DNA from: a virus
Reading direction: 5' to 3' (one strand)
IMG/VR virus record: IMGVR_UViG_3300046457_000175
Location: 55,290 to 119,289 of that record
DNA length: 64,000 nt
The position numbers and the translations under genes were made by a program. The notes under the pieces were generated by a model that saw nothing but the letters and a program-made list of their open reading frames with translations, was not told the DNA's origin and did not search any database. Shown piece by piece: positions 10,504 to 47,758 of this stretch. Every line of letters begins with the position of its first letter. Position 1 is the first letter of the stretch.

Positions 10504-10889
10504 GCTGCCACCTTGTAGAGGACCTCGTGACGGTAGAACTGAGGTTTCGGAGCCTCGTACCAGAACGCCACCCGGGGCGGCTCCTCGAAGACGGAGATCA
10601 CGATCGGGTTGACCGTGTGATAGAGGCGGGCCGCCTTGCGCAGGGTCCGCCCGCTTTCGCGAGCAGTGTCGATGATCAGAAGCCGGAATTTCGAGGGGCA
10701 GTGCTGACCGTACGGGATGTACGGGATGTGCAGCATGTGCGAGGTGTAGACCGCGGCGACCGAGCCGGACCGGCCTGGGCCTGTGACTGCGCCGATGTCG
10801 TCGAGCTGATGCTGCTGCAGGACGATACGCAGCTGGGAGGCAAACTCTTCTTCGCTGACGATGCGGATGGATTTTCTGGGCTCAGTCAT
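10500..10889 (-). CDS. Type I phosphoribosyltransferase-like protein
   Basis: VTGPGRSG and PRPP-loop-like LLIIDTARESGRT. Confidence 0.65.
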   Translation of the reverse strand: MTEPRKSIRIVSEEEFASQLRIVLQQHQLDDIGAVTGPGRSGSVAAVYTSHMLHIPYIPYGQHCPSKFRLLIIDTARESGRTLRKAARLYHTVNPIVISVFEEPPRVAFWYEAPKPQFYRHEVLYKVAA

Positions 10890-12199: not shown

Positions 12200-12646
12200 C
12201 TACGCCAGGCGGACTTGGTCCAGGCCGCAGGCGGTGGCCCAGTTGACCTCGCCGGTTGTCAGGAACATGTCGATCGCGGCGAGCGCGGCGCCCGGCGTGA
12301 TGTCGTCGTACGCCATGTCGTCGATCTGTTCGAGATCGGGGTAGTAGAGCGGCTTGAGCGCGTCGGCGTAGCCTTCGTTGACATAGCGACCAGCGCTCGG
12401 GCTCGTCGTCGTGCGGTCCCGGCTCATGACGTGCCAGACCCAGCCGCCGATGCAGCAGGTCGTGCCGCACTTGGACGCCTTCTCGGCGAAATTCATGTTG
12501 AAACCGTCCGGATGCTCGACGTCGCTGTTCGGGTCGTGTTTGAACGTGCCCTTTGCGAACAGCTCACGGACCTCCAGCAGCGCCCGATGCTCGCCGGACG
12601 TGATCTCCAGGGCTGCCGCCGGAAGAAACTCTCTGTCGTTGCTCAT
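12200..12646 (-). CDS. Phage hypothetical protein with CGTTCCIGGW motif
   Basis: GGAG RBS before MSNDREF. Confidence 0.7.
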   Translation of the reverse strand: MSNDREFLPAAALEITSGEHRALLEVRELFAKGTFKHDPNSDVEHPDGFNMNFAEKASKCGTTCCIGGWVWHVMSRDRTTTSPSAGRYVNEGYADALKPLYYPDLEQIDDMAYDDITPGAALAAIDMFLTTGEVNWATACGLDQVRLA

Positions 12647-36911: not shown

Positions 36912-37183
36912 GCTCTCGATCTCGGGTGAAGCTGTCGACGCAGCTCGATCCGACGCACGCGACATATCGCAAGAAGTCGCTTGACGTCGCCTTTCGCAGT
37001 CCGGGCAGGCCGATGCAGCTGCAGTTCTACCAGCTGAAATACCCATTCCCCATCCCCGACCAGAACCCAGTCGCCCCAGTCGGGCGCGTGTTCCTGGTCG
37101 GGAGGAATGCGGACGGCTCCGCAACAATCTTCAGGGGCAAGACCTCTGACAACACCTACACGAAGATTTCAGGAAAAAAATGA
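36908..37183 (+). CDS. Small hypothetical protein
   Basis: C-terminus IFRGKTSDNTYTKI similar to previous gene. Confidence 0.6.
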   Translation: MSSRSRVKLSTQLDPTHATYRKKSLDVAFRSPGRPMQLQFYQLKYPFPIPDQNPVAPVGRVFLVGRNADGSATIFRGKTSDNTYTKISGKK

Positions 37184-40100
37184 CAGGTGAAATCGAACTG
37201 CTTCCGGTTCGCTCGCTCGACTATGTGGTCGGGCATGATGCGACCGGGCTCGCCGGTCGTCAGTGGCGCACCGACTTCCAGACCATCTACAACGCAAAGC
37301 GATATGGCGCCATCGGCGACGGCGCGGCACATCCGCTCAGCGAGCGATATGCGACGCTTTCCCTCGCGCAGGTAGACTATCCGAGGGCTACCGCTCTGAC
37401 GGAGTCGATCGATTGGCACGCTCACCAGAAGGCGATCGACGCTGCCACCTCTGATACGGGCGGTAATCTGTATACGCCTCGCGGCAAGTACATCATGTCG
37501 CCCTGTCCCGGGCCGCTGAAGTTCCCCCTTTCGAGGGACGAAGCGCTCACGGCGTACGGTTCGAACAACGCCCAGGTCAACTGGATGGGCGACGGAGATC
37601 TGGTCTCTGTCCTCCAGTGGACGCAGGACATGGGCTCGACGCCGAACTCTGCTTACGCCGTCATGTGCGGTCAGCAGGCGGGTGATCCCAGCAATTTGCA
37701 GGCTGATAGCCGGTACGGTACCACCAACGCGAACGTCAGCTCTGGTTGGTTCAGCGGTATCTCGCTGGTCGGCCCGGCTTACACGCTCCTCGGCGGTGTT
37801 CATCGAGTCGGTCAGACCGGATGCAACATGAGCGCCATCTGCTGGGCGTCTCACCGCATGCTGATCGATGTGAAGATCTCTTGGTTCTATGCCGGCCTCG
37901 ATATCGTTGGCGATCACACTGCGCTGAACCACGTTCAGCTCAATCGCAACTATTACGGCATCTATATGAACCACAACTCGCCGTACCTCTACGGCGACTT
38001 GACCATCGGCAACAAGTTCTCGAATGCCAACAATCGGTTCGCTTGTGTTGGTTTTGCCTACGGCGGCGCGATGGGTACCTGGCACATCCAGGGCCGGCCG
38101 TTCTTCGGCACCTCGCCGTTCGTCTTCTTCAAGGAGGCGACGCCGTCCAACTGGGCGTCCGGCATGCCGGTACCCCAGTCGAGCTTCCTGTCCGGACTTC
38201 AGGCCGACAGCCTGTTCACCGAGAACGTCGGCAATGCCTTCATCTGGGACGACAATATCCGCGCCTACGGATCGACCAACACCTCGACCATCGACAAGTG
38301 CAGCTTCAAGCACCTGACGCTGCCGGGCTGGAGCGATTCTCTGCGTCTGCCCGGCTACGATCGCTGCTTCATTCTCGTTTGCAACCTCAATGGCACGGTC
38401 TTTGAGAACGTGACGAAGTGGGAAGCGACGGGTTGCACCAGGCCGCTGATCGACGTCACCGGCACGATGTATGGTGAGAGCAAGATCACGGGCGATGTCG
38501 AAGCCCTGATCACGAGCGCGACCAACTCCGGCCAGGCAGTTCTTTACGCCACTGTCGCAAACGGAGGTTCAGGCCACGCCGTTGGAGACGTGCTGCCCAT
38601 CGCGGGCGGTACGCCTTATTCGGCGGCCACGGTTGCGACCCTGAAGGTGACCAGCGTCACCGCGGGCGTCATCACCGGCATCTCCGTGCTCAGCAACGGA
38701 AACTACTCCGCTTCGCCGGCAGCAACGTCGGGCCAGGGCACCAGCTCTGGAGCGGGAACCGGTGCGACCTTCAATCTGACCATGGCTGCGCAGCAGATCT
38801 TCCGCGCTTCGACCGACTCGAACCTGAAGCGCATGGTGGTCGAGCACACCCATGGTGACGGCAGCGTCGGCTGCTGGAAGGGCCGCTTCTACAGCGTCTA
38901 CAACGGCAACCCTGTTGTGGCCGGTCACGCCCTGACCGAGGTCTTCAACGGCGCCAAGCCGGCGCGCGAGAGCGACACCACCCCATTCTTGGGAATGTGC
39001 CGCATCACCGCGACCAGCCCGACCAGCGCGATCAACATCTCGACGATCGCGGCGGAGGAGGGCGAGGATCTGCCGTACTTCCCGGGTGGTCCGTCGTCAC
39101 TTCAGACGCTCCACAAGCTGACCGAGGTCGGCGGCTGTCTCGCCAACGCCCAGAACATGGGCGACGGTCGTGTGGTCGCGTATCGAACCGGCGGACAGCT
39201 GTCTGTCGGAAAGGGCTACCGCGGAACGTCGTCCATCAACGGCAGGCCGCGAACGGTCGAAATCCAGGGCGGCGTTTCCTATACGCTCGTCAGCAATGAC
39301 CGCGGCAAGATCAAGCGCCTGAACAGCGCATCGGTGCAGGTCGCAGGTGGCGGCTTGGGATCTGGTGGAACCGGTCATTCGGCCGGAGACATTCTGACTG
39401 TTGTCGGAGGCACGCTTGCTTCTGGCGGTACGGCTGCGACCCTCGTGGTCAAGACGGTTTCTGCTGGAGTCGTGACCGAGACGGCTGTCCTCAGCCCCGG
39501 AAACTACACTGCGTTGCCTGCCAACCCGGCTGCAACGACCAGCTCCGGTGCAGGAACCGGCGCAACCATCTTCCTGGTGTCGGAATCTGCTCCGATTGTC
39601 GTCACGCTGCCGTCAACCTTCCTGGCCGGTTTCGAAGCCGAGCTGTGGCAGGGCTATCTTGGCTCGGTGAGCTGGGTCGGGGCGGCCGGAGCGACAGTTA
39701 CGGCTGCGGCTGGCGTCACCTCGACCGATGGTACGAACACGTCAGTGATCGCGACCGTGGTGAACTACGGTGTCGCAGGCATCACGATCGTCAACGGCGG
39801 CAGCGGTCACGCTGTCAACGATATCGTGACGATCGGCGGCGGCCTTCTGGCTCTGAACGGCGTGGCCGCACAGGGCAAGGTGACGAGCGTCAGTGGCGGT
39901 GTGATCACCGGCATCGTTCCCTACACGATGGGCAATTACTGGACTGGACCGACCGGAACCGTCGCGCAGTCCGCGACGACTGGTTCGGGCACGGGCTTCA
40001 CCTGCACGGTGACGCTGGGCAACGAGTGGTTCATCCGCCCGTCAGCTCCGCGTCGACGGACGGTTAACAACCAGACCGCGCCCTACACGCTGCAGCTGGC

Positions 40101-40359
40101 TGACGATGCCAACACGGTCAACGTGACCGTGGCAGCCGCGGCCAAGGTCTACGTTCGTCAGGACGCTCCGGTCGGGTTCAAGGTAACGATCATCCAGGGC
40201 GGCACAGGACAGATTACGCCTGCGCTGGTCAACGGTGGCTCGATCGTGAGCTACTCGGGTCTGACGAAGACTGCCGGCCAGTACGCCAAGATCGAACTGG
40301 AAGTCTTGAGCAACCCCGGCTCCGCGCCGGTTGTCCAGATTTCCGGGCAGCTCGCCTAA
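37180..40359 (+). CDS. Tailspike/fibre-like depolymerase (beta-helix) with three inserted GGSGH repeats
   Basis: YNAKRYGAIGDG, GGNLYTPRGKY pectate-lyase-like start; G/T/S-rich repeats. Confidence 0.8.
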   Translation: MTGEIELLPVRSLDYVVGHDATGLAGRQWRTDFQTIYNAKRYGAIGDGAAHPLSERYATLSLAQVDYPRATALTESIDWHAHQKAIDAATSDTGGNLYTPRGKYIMSPCPGPLKFPLSRDEALTAYGSNNAQVNWMGDGDLVSVLQWTQDMGSTPNSAYAVMCGQQAGDPSNLQADSRYGTTNANVSSGWFSGISLVGPAYTLLGGVHRVGQTGCNMSAICWASHRMLIDVKISWFYAGLDIVGDHTALNHVQLNRNYYGIYMNHNSPYLYGDLTIGNKFSNANNRFACVGFAYGGAMGTWHIQGRPFFGTSPFVFFKEATPSNWASGMPVPQSSFLSGLQADSLFTENVGNAFIWDDNIRAYGSTNTSTIDKCSFKHLTLPGWSDSLRLPGYDRCFILVCNLNGTVFENVTKWEATGCTRPLIDVTGTMYGESKITGDVEALITSATNSGQAVLYATVANGGSGHAVGDVLPIAGGTPYSAATVATLKVTSVTAGVITGISVLSNGNYSASPAATSGQGTSSGAGTGATFNLTMAAQQIFRASTDSNLKRMVVEHTHGDGSVGCWKGRFYSVYNGNPVVAGHALTEVFNGAKPARESDTTPFLGMCRITATSPTSAINISTIAAEEGEDLPYFPGGPSSLQTLHKLTEVGGCLANAQNMGDGRVVAYRTGGQLSVGKGYRGTSSINGRPRTVEIQGGVSYTLVSNDRGKIKRLNSASVQVAGGGLGSGGTGHSAGDILTVVGGTLASGGTAATLVVKTVSAGVVTETAVLSPGNYTALPANPAATTSSGAGTGATIFLVSESAPIVVTLPSTFLAGFEAELWQGYLGSVSWVGAAGATVTAAAGVTSTDGTNTSVIATVVNYGVAGITIVNGGSGHAVNDIVTIGGGLLALNGVAAQGKVTSVSGGVITGIVPYTMGNYWTGPTGTVAQSATTGSGTGFTCTVTLGNEWFIRPSAPRRRTVNNQTAPYTLQLADDANTVNVTVAAAAKVYVRQDAPVGFKVTIIQGGTGQITPALVNGGSIVSYSGLTKTAGQYAKIELEVLSNPGSAPVVQISGQLA

Positions 40360-40472: not shown

Positions 40473-40651
40473 CCACACCATCCCGGAGTACAGAACAGGG
40501 AGCAGGGTAATGAAGCCCTGACCGTCTGCTAGGCCCGGTTGCCAGCGGGGAGTTTCCCTCCTTTCCTTCCCGCTGGCGCCCGACGACAAATCAGCAAGCT
40601 GCAAAACGTCGGGCCACTTTTCATTTCACATGCACGAAAGGCCCAGGGCCA

Positions 40652-41218
40652 ATGAAACTCCAATACCTCATCACTCCTGTTGCAGGTCCATCCATTGCCA
40701 ATCGCTGGATCTTCTCGATCCTGAAGGACGCCGAGGGGAAGCGCCGCATCAGCTTGCTGCCAGAAGTGGCGCAGGATTACGTCGATCGTGGCTGGCTTGT
40801 TCTCGATGACGCTTCTCCGCCCGTTGTCATCCCCCCGGCAGAGCAGGCTCCGGAATACGACTTCAAGGGATCGACCGTCCGGAACGCGCGACCGCCGATC
40901 AATCGCTACTCCGCAAACCACACCTTGGCGAGTCCGACTGTCGGATCGGACAAGGGCGCCATACTCATCTTCAACAGCGCCTCGGCTGTTGTCGCCACTC
41001 TCCCGAAGGATTGGAAAGAGGGCGACGGGTGCGTCATCCGCCGCGCCGGGGCCGGCGATGTTTCCTTCGCGCTTGAGAGCGGAGCCACCAAGGTTCTTCC
41101 AGCGTCCCGGAGCGCACACACCAAGGTCGCCGAGCAGCATGGCGAGGTGATGGTTCGCGTCCTCGGCAACGCGGACGGCGCCTCTGCAGTTTGGTCCATC
41201 GAAGGGGCGACGGCATGA
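40652..41218 (+). CDS. Virion accessory protein sharing a domain with the tailspike C-terminus
   Basis: HTL....SDKGAILIFNSASAVVATLP...VIRRAGAGDVSF resembles YTL..DDANTV..T...VTIIQGGTGQIT. Confidence 0.7.
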   Translation: MKLQYLITPVAGPSIANRWIFSILKDAEGKRRISLLPEVAQDYVDRGWLVLDDASPPVVIPPAEQAPEYDFKGSTVRNARPPINRYSANHTLASPTVGSDKGAILIFNSASAVVATLPKDWKEGDGCVIRRAGAGDVSFALESGATKVLPASRSAHTKVAEQHGEVMVRVLGNADGASAVWSIEGATA

Positions 41219-42345
41219 TCATCTTGCCGAACTTTGGGATATCCCGGAGCGCAGGCAATCTGGCACCGGCTGTCGCACTCACCTACATGACGCGCCTACA
41301 GGACAGCCCGGCTGCGCCGTCCGTCAACCTGGATATCGTGGGGAACTATCTCTACACGATCAACCAGAACAAGAAGCTGCTGATCTATGATCTCTCGACG
41401 CCGGCAAACCCGACGCTCGTGGGATCAGTGACCGACACCACTAACCTGAATGGAGCAGGCGGCGTCCGCGTCTCGCCGGACGGCACTCGTGCCTACGTGA
41501 GCAACGAAGCCGGCGCCTCGATGACTGTCTGGAACGTCAGCAACAAGGCTGCGCCAACGTTCGTTGCCACCCAGCGCGGCCCGACTCCCGGCACCTCGCT
41601 CGCTGGTGCATCAAACCTTCGCCTGAACGCCGCCGGCACGCTGTGCCTTGTGACTACGATCACCCGCAACTCGCTCGCTCTGATCAACGTCTCAAACCCG
41701 GCAGTTCCAACCTGGCTCGCTGAAGTGACCGGCCTCAACGGCGCCCGTGACGTCTACCTCTCGAAGGATGAGAAGACGGCGTACGTGACCTGCGACTCGT
41801 CCGGCGTCATGGGCGTGGTCGACATCACGAACCCGGCTGCTCCGGTGCTGGTCCGAACCGTCACTGACGCGGCTTACGGCACGTTTGCACGCGGCATCAC
41901 CATGAACGCGGCCGGGACCAGGCTCTACACCATGGGTCCGAGCACCGCAGGCCTTGGTTGGAAGGGTTCGATCGGCATCTGGGATATCTCGGGCGCCAAG
42001 CAGAACAGTCCAACACAAATCTCGGCGTACGTCGGCACTGCCAGCGGCACGCCCGGATATCTTGCAGGCGGTCGCGGAATGGTGCTCTCGCCTGACGAGA
42101 AGTATCTGTATGCGGCCTCCGAAGCCGGTGACAGCTTCTCGCTGTTCAACATCAGCAATGAGGCCGCAATTCAGCTCATCGAGATCAATAGGGGCGCTGT
42201 GCCTGGAACTGACCTGGACGCGGCGATGGGTCTGAAGGTCAAGGCCGGATACGCCTACATCTCGTGCTACGGGCAGGCGGCTTCTCCGGCTGGCCGCGGC
42301 ATCGCAATCGTCAAGGTGGACCCGTACTACGGGACGCCAAACTAA
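41215..42345 (+). CDS. LVIVD-repeat beta-propeller protein
   Basis: Repeated IYDLSTPANPTLVG / VWNVSNKAAPTFV / VVDITNPAAPVLV. Confidence 0.85.
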   Translation: MIILPNFGISRSAGNLAPAVALTYMTRLQDSPAAPSVNLDIVGNYLYTINQNKKLLIYDLSTPANPTLVGSVTDTTNLNGAGGVRVSPDGTRAYVSNEAGASMTVWNVSNKAAPTFVATQRGPTPGTSLAGASNLRLNAAGTLCLVTTITRNSLALINVSNPAVPTWLAEVTGLNGARDVYLSKDEKTAYVTCDSSGVMGVVDITNPAAPVLVRTVTDAAYGTFARGITMNAAGTRLYTMGPSTAGLGWKGSIGIWDISGAKQNSPTQISAYVGTASGTPGYLAGGRGMVLSPDEKYLYAASEAGDSFSLFNISNEAAIQLIEINRGAVPGTDLDAAMGLKVKAGYAYISCYGQAASPAGRGIAIVKVDPYYGTPN

Positions 42346-42351
42346 TAGGTG

Positions 42352-42639
42352 GCATACGGCTCCGGTAACGGATGTCCGCTCTAACGGGTAAGCCAGCAGT
42401 CCCGTAGTCCTCGTAATTCCGCACCCGCGCAAACCCGACTGATCCTCGGAACGCATGCGGTCGAGGCATAGGATGATCGACTTCTGGATTGGATCATCCC
42501 CACCTCAGCGCCGTCCGTAGCAGGCATCCCCAGCGACCGTAAGGGCAGGGGACCAAAGCGCGGACGGCGCGCTACTTTCCTCGGTCCAGCCAAACGTCAC
42601 CTGATGACATAGGGGTGGCTGGTTAAACAGGAGCCATGC
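42352..42639 (+). ncRNA. Candidate large structured ncRNA (about 290 nt)
   Basis: Closing helix GCAT..GGCTCC/GGAGCC-ATGC and at least four internal helices; no credible ORF. Confidence 0.55.
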
Positions 42640-42717
42640 GTCCAACCGAGCGCTCGCGCGAGCGAGCATCGCCCGTCATCGTATTCCGGTGACGGGCACC
42701 AATTCAGGAGACATCTC

Positions 42718-42897
42718 ATGGGGCGCAGAGCCCGCGGACGCTATCGATGCAAGTGCGCTCACTGCCTCGGCATCGATCGCACGAAGCTCATAAAGCGCTT
42801 CGAAGCAAAACTCGTCGAAGAGGCTCTCCTCCCCGACGAAGAGAACATCTTCGACTCCTGGTACGACTGGGAGAAACACTACGATCTGCCTGGGTAG
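42718..42897 (+). CDS. Small CxCxxC protein (59 aa), stop codon inside tRNA-Met
   Basis: CAGGAG RBS; MGRRARGRYRCKCAHCLGIDR... Confidence 0.6.
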   Translation: MGRRARGRYRCKCAHCLGIDRTKLIKRFEAKLVEEALLPDEENIFDSWYDWEKHYDLPG

Positions 42898-42962
42898 CTC
42901 AGTGGTAGAGCAGCGGGGTCATAATCCGCATGTCGCAAGTTCAACTCTTGCCCCCGGCACCA
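42888..42962 (+). tRNA. tRNA-Met(CAT) (could be Ile2-type)
   Basis: Cloverleaf; loop GTCATAA; A73 and CCA; T4:C69 mismatch. Confidence 0.88.
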
Positions 42963-43117
42963 TCTACGGCTCCCCGATAGGCTCTGCCTGGGGGATGGAA
43001 AAAGGCGCACCGTATGGGCGCCGGCCGCATCTAAGCCGCAAGGCGCACGCTCCCCGCGTCCCGACGACTGGTCAGTCCGTCGCTTGAAGAAATCGGGTGG
43101 GGACAAATTCAACTTGC

Positions 43118-43190
43118 GTCGGTGAGCCCGCGGGGGTGGCCTGGTCTCCAAAACCAAGGTCCGAGGGTTCAACTCCCTACACCGGCGCCA
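43118..43190 (+). tRNA. tRNA-Trp(CCA) with atypical D arm
   Basis: Acceptor GTCGGTG/CACCGGC, loop CTCCAAA, G73, CCA. Confidence 0.78.
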
Positions 43191-44192: not shown

Positions 44193-44750
44193 ATGACCGA
44201 TTTACCGCCGCGTCGCCGAGGACGGCCGACGAATGAGGAGAAGGCTGCCCGCGAGGCTGCAGTCAAGGCGAAGTCCGAAAAGGACGCTCAGGAAACTGAG
44301 TTCCTGGACGATGTTCTCGCCCAACCAATCAAGCGCCGCGCCCCGCAGGCGAGGATCCAGCCGGACGACGAAACGCTCCGCACCATCGGCGAGCTTGGCA
44401 AGTTGTTCTGTACCCAAGAGGAAGTTGCCGCGGTGCTCGGCGTGTCCCGGCGGACATTCCAGACGTTCATCTCGGAGTGCCAAGAGGCTCGTGACGTTTG
44501 GGATGACGGCCTGATGCACGCCAAGGTCTCGCTGCGCCGCAAGCAGCTCGCGCTCGCCGACAAGAACGCGCCGGCCGCGATCTTCCTCGGCAAGAACTAC
44601 CTCGGCCAGAAGGACGAGAGCACCACCAACATGAACATCTCCAAGCCCGTCGCGGAAATGAGCGAAGCGGAGCTGATGGAAATCGCCATGCGCAAGTCTG
44701 GCTCGGCGCCGCCGTCCAAGCCTGAGACCAAGACGGAGCGCGTCCACTGA
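44193..44750 (+). CDS. terS: Terminase small subunit-like HTH protein
   Basis: CTQEEVAAVLGVSRRTF HTH; AAIFLGKNYLGQKD. Confidence 0.75.
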   Translation: MTDLPPRRRGRPTNEEKAAREAAVKAKSEKDAQETEFLDDVLAQPIKRRAPQARIQPDDETLRTIGELGKLFCTQEEVAAVLGVSRRTFQTFISECQEARDVWDDGLMHAKVSLRRKQLALADKNAPAAIFLGKNYLGQKDESTTNMNISKPVAEMSEAELMEIAMRKSGSAPPSKPETKTERVH

Positions 44751-44769
44751 CAATGCAAGGGACTGACCG

Positions 44770-45681
44770 ATGATCAAAGACCAGAAGCGGTCCCGCGCAA
44801 TGATCGAGGATATCCGAAGACAACGCCAGGGGGTGATTGAGCAACGCCTTTGGCAGTCGAAAAACTTCTCTGAGGGCAAGCGTGAGGTTCCGGTTGATCC
44901 GGCGCCCGCGCCTGCACCGGAGTCGGAGCTACCCGAACCAGACCTCGTCGAGGTCGAACCACCGAAAGAGGAAAAATTCACCATGGGTCTCCCCCATCTC
45001 GTTATCGTCGGCGCTGACAAAGGCGGCGTTGGCAAGACCACCGTTTCTGACACCGTTCTCGGCTACTTCGCCGCACAGGGCGTGGACGCTCGCGCGATCG
45101 ACACCCAGATGCCCGCTGGCAATCTGATCCGCCGCTACCCCGCCGTCACCGAGGTTATCGACCTGGCCAGCTCAGACGGCCAGATCAAGGTCTTCGACTC
45201 TCTTGGCAAACATGCCGTCACCGTGATCGACATCCAGGCGGGCTTGCTCTCGCCGACGCTGACCCTGCTCAGCGAGATCGGTCTGCTGTCCATGGTCCAG
45301 GACGGCAAGATGAATGTGACCGTGATGCACGTCATCGGCAGCACGGTGCAGTCGCTCAGCGAGATCGAAGGCGCCGCCAAGATCATCGCCGGCTCGCGCC
45401 ACTTCATCGTCAAGAACCACTCGAACGACGCCGCGTTCTTCGACGGCCTCAACGTGTCGACCGAAGCTCTGAAGATCGGCACAGCTCTGATCGACATCCC
45501 GAAGCTCGACCCCCGCGCCACCGAGTACGTGGACGCCGCAGTCGAGAAGGGCCTGACCGACGCGACCTCATTCGCCGGCTACGCCAAGAGCGGAGACTCC
45601 TTCGTGATGAAGGGCAAGGTCGGTCACTGGCTGAAGGGCGTGTTCGCCCAATACGATACGGCCAAGCTGAACATCGCTTAA
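44770..45681 (+). CDS. ParA/MinD-like P-loop ATPase (second in-frame start at 44983)
   Basis: VGADKGGVGKTT deviant Walker A; resembles a conserved Bradyrhizobiaceae protein. Confidence 0.8.
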   Translation: MIKDQKRSRAMIEDIRRQRQGVIEQRLWQSKNFSEGKREVPVDPAPAPAPESELPEPDLVEVEPPKEEKFTMGLPHLVIVGADKGGVGKTTVSDTVLGYFAAQGVDARAIDTQMPAGNLIRRYPAVTEVIDLASSDGQIKVFDSLGKHAVTVIDIQAGLLSPTLTLLSEIGLLSMVQDGKMNVTVMHVIGSTVQSLSEIEGAAKIIAGSRHFIVKNHSNDAAFFDGLNVSTEALKIGTALIDIPKLDPRATEYVDAAVEKGLTDATSFAGYAKSGDSFVMKGKVGHWLKGVFAQYDTAKLNIA

Positions 45682-46294: not shown

Positions 46295-47758
46295 GTGAAC
46301 GACCTAATCGACGTGTCCCCTGAGGATGCGGCGGCCGAAATCCTGCGTCGTAGGAGGGGCCGCGAACGCCTCATCCCCTTCACAGAATACACGCTACCCA
46401 AATACAAGGCTGACCCCTTCCACAATCTCGTTGCCGACAAGCTTGAGGCCGTCGAGCGCGGCGAGATCAAGCGGCTGATGCTGTTCGCTCCGCCGCGGCA
46501 CGGCAAGTCGGAACTGTCGACCAGGCGTTTCCCGGCCTACTTCATGGCCAGGAACCCAGACAAGAACGTGATCTCGGCGTCGTACAACGGCGACTTCGCG
46601 ACCACGTTCGGACGCGACGTCCGCAACATCGTCAAGGGCAAGGAGTTCGCGACACTCTTTCCGGACACCAAGATCCGCAGCGACAACCGCGCTGCTGACG
46701 AGTGGGAGCTGGAGCAGGGCGGCAAATACTTCGCGGTCGGCGTCGGCACCGGCACCACTGGTAAGGGCGCCCATCTCTTCCTGATCGACGATCCGATCAA
46801 GGACCGCAAAGAGGTCAACTCCGCCAACTTCCGTCAGGACCAGTGGGACTGGTACCGCGACGTCGTCTACACCCGTCTGGAAGAGGACGCCGCAATCGTC
46901 CTCACGCTGACGCGGTGGCACTACGACGACATCGCCGGTCGCCTCATCGAGCTGATGAACGACAAGAAGGGTCTCCCATGGGAAATCCTGTATCTGCCGG
47001 CGCTGCCCTACACCACGAAGATCAAACGCGAAGATGGCACTGAAGATCTGATCCTCAACGAGGACGGTACGGTCCCCGGTGATCCTCTCGGCCGAAAGCC
47101 GAAGGAGCCGCTCGCGCCGCGACGCTTCTCCTACAACGCGCTGATGGACCGCCAGGACGTTCTTGGCGAGAGGTCATTCGCTGCGCTGTATCAGCAGAAG
47201 CCGATGGCTGACGACGGCGGCATGTTCAACGCCGCGTGGTTCGAGAACCCGGCTGAGCTGCCCGCCAAGCGTGTCCGCGTGCGTGCGTGGGATTTGGCGG
47301 CATCAGCTGATGGCGACTACACGGTCGGCGTCCTGATGTCGAAGGACTCCAACGGCATCTTCTACATCGAGAACGTGGTCCGCATGCGCGGCACCCCACT
47401 CGAAGTCGAGAAACTGATCTTCGACACCGCCAAGAACGACGGCCGGTCTGTCCAGATCATCCTCCCGCAAGACCCTGGCCAGGCTGGCAAAGCCCAGGTG
47501 CAGAGCTTCATTCGCCGGCTCGCCGGCTACATCGTCAAGGCCGTCCGCCCTACCGGACCGAAGGAAACCCGTGCTGCCGCATTCGCTGCGCAGTGCGAGG
47601 CAAAGAACGTGAAGATGGTGAAGGCTCGTTGGAACGACTGTTTCACCGATGAGCTGGAGACGTTTCCGCTTGGTGTCAATGACGACCAAGTGGATGCAGC
47701 CGCCGACGCATTCAACGCACTCCTCGGTCCGCGCAAGGCCGCGGTCCTTGACTGGTAA
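46295..47758 (+). CDS. terL: Terminase large subunit
   Basis: APPRHGKSEL Walker A, LFLIDDP Walker B, RAWDLA, DDQVDA nuclease motif. Confidence 0.97.
   Translation: MNDLIDVSPEDAAAEILRRRRGRERLIPFTEYTLPKYKADPFHNLVADKLEAVERGEIKRLMLFAPPRHGKSELSTRRFPAYFMARNPDKNVISASYNGDFATTFGRDVRNIVKGKEFATLFPDTKIRSDNRAADEWELEQGGKYFAVGVGTGTTGKGAHLFLIDDPIKDRKEVNSANFRQDQWDWYRDVVYTRLEEDAAIVLTLTRWHYDDIAGRLIELMNDKKGLPWEILYLPALPYTTKIKREDGTEDLILNEDGTVPGDPLGRKPKEPLAPRRFSYNALMDRQDVLGERSFAALYQQKPMADDGGMFNAAWFENPAELPAKRVRVRAWDLAASADGDYTVGVLMSKDSNGIFYIENVVRMRGTPLEVEKLIFDTAKNDGRSVQIILPQDPGQAGKAQVQSFIRRLAGYIVKAVRPTGPKETRAAAFAAQCEAKNVKMVKARWNDCFTDELETFPLGVNDDQVDAAADAFNALLGPRKAAVLDW

What the first reader, a model, noticed from the sequence alone, without database searches (positions are those of the whole stretch)
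42352..42716. Large closed RNA fold (about 290 nt) heading a tRNA cluster
Seen: 370 nt with no credible ORF in an otherwise gene-dense genome. The ends pair (GCAT-AC-GGCTCC 42352-63 with GGAGCC-ATGC 42630-39). Inside are TCCG-GTAA-CGGA, GGATGATC/GATCATCC (42471-99), a 10-bp helix GCGCCGTCCG/CGGACGGCGC (42508-17/42561-70) enclosing a subdomain, and CCAGCCA/TGGCTGG (42586-92/42616-22). A separate GCCCGTCA/TGACGGGC hairpin follows. It lacks the signatures I know for RNase P, tmRNA, SRP and group I introns. Established: large ornate ncRNAs such as GOLLD and ROOL occur next to phage tRNA genes, and phi29 uses a structured RNA in packaging. Inference: an undescribed phage ncRNA. With the elements at 40473, 42963, 45712 and 46221 it may form an RNA-rich late module; this is the best candidate here for a new system.
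Basis: partly seen in the sequence, partly recalled or inferred. Interest (0 to 1): 0.78.

Follow-up and report, generated by a model that had tools for sequence, protein, structure and literature searches.

The report
Modular structured RNAs heading phage tRNA island
The gene-free 355 bases in front of this Bradyrhizobium-type phage's tRNA genes hold three separate, evolutionarily conserved folded RNA modules that match no catalogued RNA family, not one large closed RNA, and their function is still unknown.

Summary
The relatives include Bradyrhizobium phage BDU-MI-1.

The proposed long-range "closing" helix (42352-63 with 42630-39) is not conserved. It also competes with a helix that is supported by covariation.

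The region is a tandem of independent plus-strand RNA modules:
- **Module A (42346-42506):** a 5-way junction closed by AGGUGG/CCACCU, with a GNRA hairpin and three invariant loops.
- **A variable hairpin (42508-42570).**
- **Module C (42580-42650):** a 3-way junction, followed by two hairpins that run to 42697.

In relatives, A and C each occur without the other. The space between them ranges from about 5 to about 1170 nt. It can hold a third closed module, a small ORF, or an HNH endonuclease gene.

The modules always sit on the tRNA strand, after an ORF stop and in front of tRNA-Met, tRNA-Trp or tRNA-Asn. G·U pairs outnumber A·C by 54 to 3, which points to plus-strand RNA. No Rfam 15 family matches. 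The model of A found it in only 1 of about 300 Rhizobiales genomes searched.

Best reading: these are accessory stable ncRNAs co-transcribed with the phage tRNA island, the same kind of thing as GOLLD, ROOL and skipping-rope. No expression data could be obtained.

The parts
42346..42506 (+). Module A, a closed multi-stem junction RNA of about 160 nt. P1 is 42347-52 with 42500-05. P2 is 42357-78, with a GNRA loop GUAA at 42365-68. P3 is 42385-42404, with loop UAAGCCAGCAGU. P4 is 42409-13 with 42462-66. Inside P4 are P4a (42419-23 with 42456-60), P4b (42427-29 with 42452-54) and P4c (42435-38 with 42446-49, 7-nt loop CUGAUCC at 42439-45). P5 is 42471-78 with 42492-99, with an invariant 13-nt loop GACUUCUGGAUUG at 42479-91.
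   Evidence: Alignment A3 of 18 distinct homologues: 96.4% of cells paired, 9 pairs with double changes, 0 of 500 shuffles reach the observed covariation score, and slid controls give 32-54% paired. The P4c stem takes four fully complementary versions. Model R1 scores the window copy at 184.7 bits and finds a single copy in the genome.
42508..42570 (+). Variable hairpin directly after module A. In the window it is a 10-bp outer helix (42508-17 with 42561-70) with an inner bulged stem.
   Evidence: It is present in L004 and, with 6 compensatory pairs, in the distant phage L077. Every lineage has some strong hairpin 1-6 nt after P1, but its length and sequence differ. In other relatives this position holds about 165-1170 nt of other material.
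42580..42650 (+). Module C core, a 3-way junction of about 71 nt. The closing stem is CUCGGU (42580-85) with ACCGAG (42645-50). P2' is 42586-92 with 42616-22 and encloses a GUCA/UGAC hairpin. A small hairpin lies at 42630-43.
   Evidence: Alignment A4 of 15 homologues: 94.8% of cells paired, 10 pairs with double changes, 0 of 500 shuffles. C occurs without A in L138, L140, L144 and L145.
42652..42697 (+). Two conserved hairpins that trail module C: GCUCG/CGAGC at 42652-67 and GCCCGUCA.../...UGACGGGC at 42671-97. Neither has a canonical U-tract.
   Evidence: Both covary (helices 5 and 6). In L004, L039 and L089 the last hairpin ends a few nt before the 5' end of tRNA-Met. The terminator scan reports no site here.
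42718..42897 (+). Small ORF of 59 aa with an Arg-rich N-terminus and a CxC...HC motif, preceded by an AGGAG ribosome-binding site. Its last 10 nt overlap tRNA-Met. Its position relative to the RNA modules differs between phages.
   Evidence: Conserved at protein level in 10 clusters, with no Pfam or PHROG family. It lies after C in the window and L145, between A and C in BDU-MI-1, directly after A in L011, and is absent from most loci.
42888..43190 (+). tRNA-Met(CAT) at 42888-42962, a conserved 155-nt spacer, and tRNA-Trp(CCA) at 43118-43190. This is the tRNA island that the modules head.
   Evidence: ARAGORN and Rfam. The same order is seen in relatives.

Best explanation
The stretch 42346-42697 encodes a tandem of independently folding plus-strand RNA modules: A, a variable hairpin, C, and two trailing hairpins. 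They belong to the accessory tRNA island of a clade of Bradyrhizobium phages of about 110-125 kb.

Shown:
- Each module is closed by its own terminal helix.
- Stems covary while several loops are invariant (AGCCAG in the P3 loop, CUGAUCC, and GACUUCUGGAUUG).
- Modules are gained and lost independently between relatives.
- They always lie on the tRNA strand, directly after an upstream ORF's stop codon with no consensus promoter, and in front of a tRNA.

Inferred:
- They are transcribed as part of the long late or tRNA-island transcript.
- Their 3' ends are set by RNase P cutting at the 5' end of the next tRNA and by the protective hairpins.
- They accumulate as stable small RNAs.
- Their invariant loops are a recognition surface, either for tertiary loop-loop contacts (CCAG with CUGG, GAUCC with GGAUU) or for an unknown protein or RNA partner.
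- Because close relatives lack A or C, the role is accessory (host takeover or counter-defence type), not essential for virion production.
For: Covariation supports A, C and the middle hairpin. G·U cells outnumber A·C cells 13 to 1 in A and 41 to 2 in C, and the GNRA loops GUAA/GCAA read as GNRA only on the plus strand. There is no conserved ORF. No Rfam family matches at E<=10. The order A...C...tRNA on one strand is conserved in about 25 contigs. Module independence is shown. The upstream ORF's stop codon abuts or overlaps P1 in most lineages, and no sigma-70-like promoter is found. Model R1 finds one copy per phage and only 1 of about 300 sampled Rhizobiales genomes, itself a phage-like contig. 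More distant relatives by TerL lack A. Relatives carry a bona fide skipping-rope RNA (RF02924, 50-52 bits) in the same tRNA island. GOLLD and ROOL are documented as phage RNAs near tRNA islands (PMC5737381, PMC12286853).
Against: No partner has been identified. The loop-loop pairings involve invariant bases, so covariation cannot test them. No canonical terminator or promoter delimits a discrete gene. In the window, ORF59 separates C from tRNA-Met, so RNase P would not set C's 3' end here. The family is narrow, about 20 distinct sequences from one phage clade, so part of the covariation signal reflects a few lineage splits.
Confidence: 0.6

Rival explanations
1. The modules are cis-acting parts of the tRNA-island precursor with no function of their own once released. 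They would serve as structured 5' leaders and spacers that protect the transcript from RNase E or exonucleases, insulate tRNA folding, or guide ordered processing.
For: The modules always lie immediately upstream of a tRNA on the same strand. In several loci they end a few nt (C's last hairpin in L004, L039, L089), about 10 nt (C core in L077) or about 40 nt (A in L014, L022, L097) before the tRNA's 5' end. No promoter or terminator of their own is found. They are dispensable in relatives.
Against: A protective leader would not need a 5-way junction with a 13-nt invariant loop and two more invariant loops, kept while stems turn over. A is separated from the tRNA by up to about 1.7 kb of inserted material in some relatives (for example L054: A ends at 10572 and the next tRNA starts at 12249), and by ORF59 in the window. 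tRNAs elsewhere in the same genome lack such modules.
Confidence: 0.25
2. This is the first reader's model: one closed RNA of about 290 nt whose 5' and 3' ends pair, with A, the middle hairpin and C as domains of a single obligate fold.
For: The order A, hairpin, C recurs in the window, in L004 and in the distant phage L077. In the window the 10-bp end pairing is possible.
Against: The end pairing is not maintained in most homologues, and it overlaps the covariation-supported P2. Some loci have A without C (L011, L014, L022, L097) and others C without A (L138, L140, L144, L145). The A-to-C spacing runs from about 5 to about 1170 nt.
Confidence: 0.05
3. Module A is a riboswitch-like or attenuator-like sensor that controls read-through into the tRNA island, with the hairpin that always follows it acting as the expression platform.
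For: A has a multi-stem junction with invariant junction and loop bases. A strong hairpin always follows P1 within 1-6 nt. In L011 that hairpin is followed by UAUUUU.
Against: Most of the following hairpins lack a U-tract. No alternative pairing between A and the hairpin was seen. What lies downstream varies (tRNA, ORF59, module M2, HNH gene). A sits in a 3' UTR position abutting an ORF stop. No known riboswitch family matches.
Confidence: 0.05
4. The element acts as DNA (a pac, ori or recombination site), or it is decaying, functionless sequence such as tRNA or intron remnants.
For: It lies 1.5-3.5 kb upstream of terS-like and terL genes. The locus is a hotspot for insertions, including an HNH endonuclease gene in L054.
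Against: The 54 to 3 excess of G·U over A·C in paired columns and the strand-specific GNRA loops argue for a plus-strand RNA, not duplex or either-strand DNA. Invariant loops together with compensatory stems indicate purifying selection on a fold. The tRNA model gives no hit on these modules at E<=10.
Confidence: 0.05

Closest known systems
GOLLD and ROOL large ornate RNAs
   Same: They are phage or prophage encoded, of unknown function, and typically next to tRNA islands. GOLLD has a conserved part plus a variable part and can carry tRNAs in its linker (PMC5737381, PMC12286853). The locus here is likewise a run of covarying structure in front of tRNA-Met, 355 nt in the window and well over 600 nt in relatives.
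   Different: There is no sequence or structure match to either Rfam model at E<=10. The RNA here is much smaller per unit (about 160 and about 70-120 nt). The units are separable and each occurs alone, whereas GOLLD and ROOL are single multi-domain folds. Oligomerisation has not been tested.
skipping-rope RNA (RF02924)
   Same: It is a small, highly conserved phage-associated RNA of unknown but presumably sophisticated function. Relatives of this phage carry a genuine copy in the same tRNA island, between tRNA-Met or tRNA-Phe and tRNA-Trp.
   Different: The window itself has no skipping-rope hit. Modules A and C have different architectures and are not matched by that model.
Phage T4 stable RNAs species 1 and 2 (rnaC, rnaD) in the T4 tRNA cluster (from my own knowledge, not checked here)
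   Same: They are non-tRNA stable RNAs of about 120-140 nt, encoded among phage tRNA genes, co-transcribed with them and released by tRNA-processing enzymes. Their function is still unknown.
   Different: No sequence relationship was tested or is expected. Processing of A and C is inferred, not shown.
tRNA and tRNA-like RNAs (Y RNA/YrlA tRNA-like modules, tmRNA tRNA-like domain)
   Same: The 99-nt short form of A (L073, L077) is a cloverleaf-like 4-way junction with a closing stem of 6-7 bp. Its last arm abuts the 3' strand of that stem, as a T arm does. In the long form an extra arm sits at the variable-arm position.
   Different: Arm and loop sizes are not tRNA-like (an 8-bp arm with a 13-nt loop, a 12-nt loop on P3). 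There is no T-loop or D-loop consensus and no 3' CCA. ARAGORN and the Rfam tRNA, tmRNA and Y RNA models do not report it.
Unnamed candidate structured RNAs from IMG/VR (PMC10690425)
   Same: That catalogue drew on the same data source and lists thousands of unnamed covarying motifs of 29-151 nt. It may already contain pieces of A or C.
   Different: This could not be checked because no supplementary files are held. The catalogue assigns no function or name.

Membership tests
Any Rfam 15 family (including RNase P RNA, tmRNA, SRP RNA, 6S, group I/II introns, GOLLD, ROOL, riboswitches, self-cleaving ribozymes) | A covariance-model match at or near the family's gathering score | tested here: not met
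   Within 42346-42716 the only hit at E<=10 is a chance 24-nt CRISPR-DR28 match (20 bits against a gathering score of 35). Nothing reaches gathering thresholds.
tRNA | A cloverleaf with canonical arm and loop sizes, detected by ARAGORN or RF00005 | tested here: not met
   ARAGORN and RF00005 report only the true tRNAs in the window. ARAGORN calls nothing at module A in the relatives, including the short forms L073 and L077.
skipping-rope RNA (RF02924) | A match to the RF02924 model at 36.7 bits or more | tested here: not met
   Relatives L009, L039 and L075 score 50-52 bits, but at a different place, between the tRNAs. The window has no hit.
Structured ncRNA in general (conserved RNA secondary structure) | Compensatory base changes that maintain helices, beyond shuffled and slid controls | tested here: met
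   A: 9 pairs with double changes, 96.4% of cells paired, 0 of 500 shuffles reach the covariation score. C: 10 pairs, 94.8% paired, 0 of 500. Slid controls give 29-54% paired.
Structured ncRNA in general | Strand-specific signal, with G·U tolerated on the transcribed strand | tested here: met
   54 G·U/U·G cells against 3 A·C/C·A cells in paired columns. The GNRA loops GUAA and GCAA read as GNRA only on the plus strand.
Structured ncRNA in general | Transcribed and accumulating as a discrete species | not testable with these tools
No RNA data were available.
Intrinsic terminator | A GC-rich hairpin followed by a U-tract | tested here: not met
   The scan reports no plus-strand terminator-like site between 42346 and 42717. 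The tails after the hairpins are mostly not U-rich.
Protein-coding gene | An open frame conserved across homologues | tested here: not met
   All plus frames carry stops in nearly every homologue. Minus frames are open only sporadically. Lengths differ by non-multiples of 3.

The most novel reading that the evidence does not exclude
Modules A and C, together with module M2 in relatives, may be founding members of a new class of small, mobile, tRNA-island-borne phage RNAs with a biochemical role of their own. One possibility is a tRNA-shaped decoy or sponge for host tRNA-targeting defence nucleases or tRNA-processing and tRNA-modifying enzymes. Another is a self-assembling RNA, using the self-complementary GAUC in the invariant CUGAUCC loop. 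In either case the invariant loops would be the active surface.
Probability: 0.12. Interest if true: 0.85.

Novelty: new member of a known kind. Interest (0 to 1): 0.55.

Why it matters
Phage tRNA islands repeatedly harbour elaborate RNAs whose functions remain unsolved after more than a decade; GOLLD, ROOL, skipping-rope and the T4 species 1 and 2 RNAs are examples. This locus adds covariation-backed families: modules A and C in the window, and a third closed module (M2) seen only in relatives.

They come from an alphaproteobacterial phage clade that has a cultured, genetically tractable pair, BDU-MI-1 on B. diazoefficiens USDA110. Natural variants lacking each module already exist. That offers a compact system (RNAs of 99-160 nt, with ready-made presence/absence comparisons) for asking what tRNA-island RNAs do.

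The family is narrow and no function is shown, so the immediate impact is moderate.

Tried and rejected
- **Known families.** Rfam at gathering and at E<=10 gave nothing on the window region. Relatives yielded only tRNAs and skipping-rope, elsewhere in the island.
- **The end-closing helix.** It is not conserved.
- **Unpaired covarying columns.** A scan of A3 for pseudoknot candidates returned only lineage-split signals plus the P4a pair.
- **boxA/boxB-like antitermination.** I considered reading P2 plus GCUCUAAC this way. I dropped it because the junction sequence is not kept in the short forms.
- **Other copies.** There are no further copies of A, C or M2 in the window or genome. There is no match in the plasmid collection, and only BDU-MI-1 matches in the GenBank phage collection.
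- **Host chromosomal origin.** Model R1 hit 1 of 151 Bradyrhizobium genomes and 1 of 151 genomes of the order. Both hits are the same genome, on its phage-like contig.
- **Prior catalogue.** No supplementary files are held for the IMG/VR candidate-RNA paper (PMC10690425), so prior listing could not be checked.
- **Earlier scan notes.** A look-up by sequence found nothing.
- **Promoters and terminators.** The scan found no promoter and no plus-strand terminator in the region.

Full report
**Setting.** The window is bases 55290-119289 of a 119-kb IMG/VR phage record that is 98% complete. Its only relative in the GenBank phage collection is Bradyrhizobium phage BDU-MI-1.

The finding lies between tail-type genes and an accessory and packaging block. 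The tail-type genes are a 1059-aa tail protein at 37180-40359 and an LVIVD beta-propeller protein at 41191-42345. The downstream block holds a thioredoxin, a weak terS-like ORF, a ParA-like ORF, tRNA-Cys, and terL at 46295-47758. All of these genes, and the tRNAs Met (42888-42962) and Trp (43118-43190), are on the plus strand.

**Checking the observation.** The stretch 42346-42717 has no credible ORF. It folds better than dinucleotide shuffles on both strands, with z of -4.2 on plus and -3.8 on minus. No Rfam 15 family matches, even at E<=10.

**Relatives show the region is modular.** Pattern scans of viral, metagenome and genome collections, plus loci retrieved through terL, gave about 25 related contigs. 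One of them is a contig of Bradyrhizobium hipponense. BLAST against these loci showed two conserved blocks, 42344-42505 and 42576-42705.

The spacing between the two blocks varies widely:
- about 5 nt in L073
- 70 nt in the window
- 165-440 nt in L039, L009, L020 and L075
- about 640-1170 nt in L023, L093, L087 and L054

Each block also occurs without the other. L011, L014, L022 and L097 have the first block followed within about 40-60 nt by ORF59 or a tRNA, with no second block. L138, L140, L144 and L145 have the second block without the first. In L145, whose module C is 90% identical to the window's, C starts about 15-20 nt after the stop of a different upstream gene.

**Module A (42346-42506).** In 18 distinct homologues the consensus fold has these parts:
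- a closing stem AGGUGG/CCACCU, plus a covarying seventh pair (a U·C mismatch in the window itself)
- P2, a bulged hairpin capped by GUAA or GCAA
- P3, with the conserved loop UAAGCCAGYAN
- P4
- P5, an 8-bp stem with an invariant 13-nt loop

Overall, 96.4% of cells are paired and 9 pairs show changes on both sides. No shuffle out of 500 reaches the observed covariation score, and slid controls pair only 32-54%.

Inside P4, the P4c stem occurs as CCGA/UCGG, CCGG/CCGG, ACGG/CCGU and AACA/UGUU around a nearly invariant 7-nt loop CUGAUCC. P4a also covaries.

Two lineages (L073/L099 and L077) carry a 99-nt form that lacks P4. This is a cloverleaf-like 4-way junction. Despite that shape, ARAGORN and the Rfam tRNA model do not recognise it, and the arm and loop sizes are not tRNA-like.

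**Middle hairpin (42508-42570).** It is shared with L004 and, with 6 compensatory pairs, with the distant 108-kb phage L077. L077 also keeps the order A, hairpin, C, tRNA. Every lineage has some strong hairpin 1-6 nt after P1, but its sequence and length differ.

In many relatives this position also holds a third, nearly invariant closed module of about 165 nt (M2), with closing stem GGCUCGUGA/UCACGAGCC, followed by further hairpins. L054 additionally has an ORF with HNH-endonuclease-like motifs there, identified by my reading of its sequence rather than by a family search. BDU-MI-1 has the 59-aa ORF there.

**Module C (42580-42650, with hairpins to 42697).** The core is a 3-way junction. Its closing stem is CUCGGU with ACCGAG. 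P2' is CCAGCCA with UGGCUGG and encloses a GUCA/UGAC hairpin. A small hairpin follows. Two covarying hairpins trail the core.

In 15 homologues, 94.8% of cells are paired and 10 pairs show double changes, with 0 of 500 shuffles reaching the observed score. In L004, L039 and L089 the last hairpin ends a few nt before tRNA-Met.

**The closing helix fails.** The proposed pairing of 42352-63 with 42630-39 holds only in the window's nearest relatives and is broken in most other homologues. Its 5' arm belongs to P2, which covaries. Together with the independent occurrence of A and C, this rules out a single closed fold of about 290 nt.

**Strand and molecule.** In paired columns, G·U/U·G cells outnumber A·C/C·A cells 13 to 1 in A and 41 to 2 in C. 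The tetraloops read as GNRA only on the plus strand. Both observations point to a plus-strand RNA rather than a DNA element or a minus-strand transcript.

There is no conserved ORF. All plus frames carry stops, and homologue lengths differ by non-multiples of 3.

**Distribution.** Covariance model R1, built from A, finds one copy per phage genome. It hits only 1 of 151 Bradyrhizobium genomes and 1 of 151 genomes of the order. Both hits are the same genome, on its phage-like contig.

Phages more distant by terL lack A: the record with 66% terL identity and the one with 78% give no hit, and the one with 81% gives only a weak hit at E about 0.009. There is no plasmid match. The modules are therefore phage-borne, clade-restricted and dispensable.

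**How it probably works.** P1 of module A abuts or overlaps the stop codon of whatever ORF lies upstream, and that ORF differs between lineages. No consensus promoter or terminator is present. The next feature downstream on the same strand is a tRNA, often within a few to about 40 nt.

I therefore infer the following:
- The modules are co-transcribed with the upstream gene and the tRNAs.
- They are released by tRNA processing.
- Their terminal helices and trailing hairpins stabilise them.

Stems have turned over while three loops stay invariant. That points to selection on a recognition surface. Candidate intramolecular contacts are CCAG (P3 loop) with CUGG (P5 loop), and GAUCC (P4c loop) with GGAUU (P5 loop). 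These bases never vary, so covariation cannot test the contacts.

The partner and the biological role are unknown. The loss of A or C in close relatives suggests an accessory role. I put this reading at about 0.6 and a purely cis-acting leader or processing role at about 0.25. The other rivals are each at or below 0.05.

**Comparison with known RNAs.** The closest known kind is the phage tRNA-island RNAs of unknown function. GOLLD and ROOL are documented near tRNA islands and in prophages, and GOLLD has a variable half and sometimes embedded tRNAs (PMC5737381, PMC12286853).

Relatives of this phage also carry a genuine skipping-rope RNA (RF02924, 50-52 bits) between their tRNAs. The T4 species 1 and 2 RNAs are a further analogue, cited from my own knowledge.

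Membership in any of these families was tested by covariance model and not met. This is a new family, or set of families, of a known kind. Parts of it may already be listed among the unnamed IMG/VR candidate RNAs of PMC10690425, which I could not check.

**Limits.** No expression data could be obtained. The family is small and from one clade, so some covariation counts reflect a few lineage splits. No function has been demonstrated.

Noticed in passing
L009:2214-2327(-), L039:2694-2800(-), L075:2184-2302(+): Relatives carry a genuine skipping-rope RNA (RF02924, 50-52 bits). L009 also has a tRNA-Phe. Both lie in the spacer between tRNA-Met and tRNA-Trp. The window's 155-nt spacer (42963-43117) looks like the flanks of that insertion joined together and has no skipping-rope hit.
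   Followed up: partly
L039:3204-3368(-); also L009, L068, L020, L075, L054, L087: A third closed module of about 165 nt (M2) lies between A and C in many relatives. Its closing stem is GGCUCGUGA/UCACGAGCC and it is nearly invariant, so covariation support is minimal. It is absent from the window and has no Rfam match.
   Followed up: partly
window 42718-42897: The 59-aa ORF has an Arg-rich N-terminus and a CxC...HC motif. Its last 10 nt, including the stop codon, lie inside tRNA-Met, so RNase P cleavage at the tRNA's 5' end would remove its stop. The ORF sits at different places relative to the RNA modules in different phages. It has 10 homologue clusters and no known domain.
   Followed up: partly
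L054:10573-11743: An ORF with HNH-endonuclease-like motifs, identified by eye, is inserted between the RNA modules in this provirus record. The locus therefore behaves as an insertion hotspot.
   Followed up: no
L092:6973-7036(-): An isolated copy of only the P4 domain of module A (model positions 71-134, 38.9 bits) lies between the small ORF and module C. No P1, P2, P3 or P5 was found by model R1. It looks like a recombination remnant.
   Followed up: no
L145:7300-7720: This close relative (module C 90% identical, small ORF 97% identical) has a different upstream gene and lacks module A and the middle hairpin entirely. It is a natural A-minus variant. Its P2' stem carries a compensatory change, CCGGCC with GGCCGG.
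   Followed up: partly
window 44193-45681: A weak terS-like ORF (PHROG E=4e-4) and an ORF with a weak CbiA/ParA-type match (below the Pfam cut-off) sit between the tRNA island and tRNA-Cys and terL. Several IMG/VR relatives are classed as proviruses of about 120 kb.
   Followed up: no
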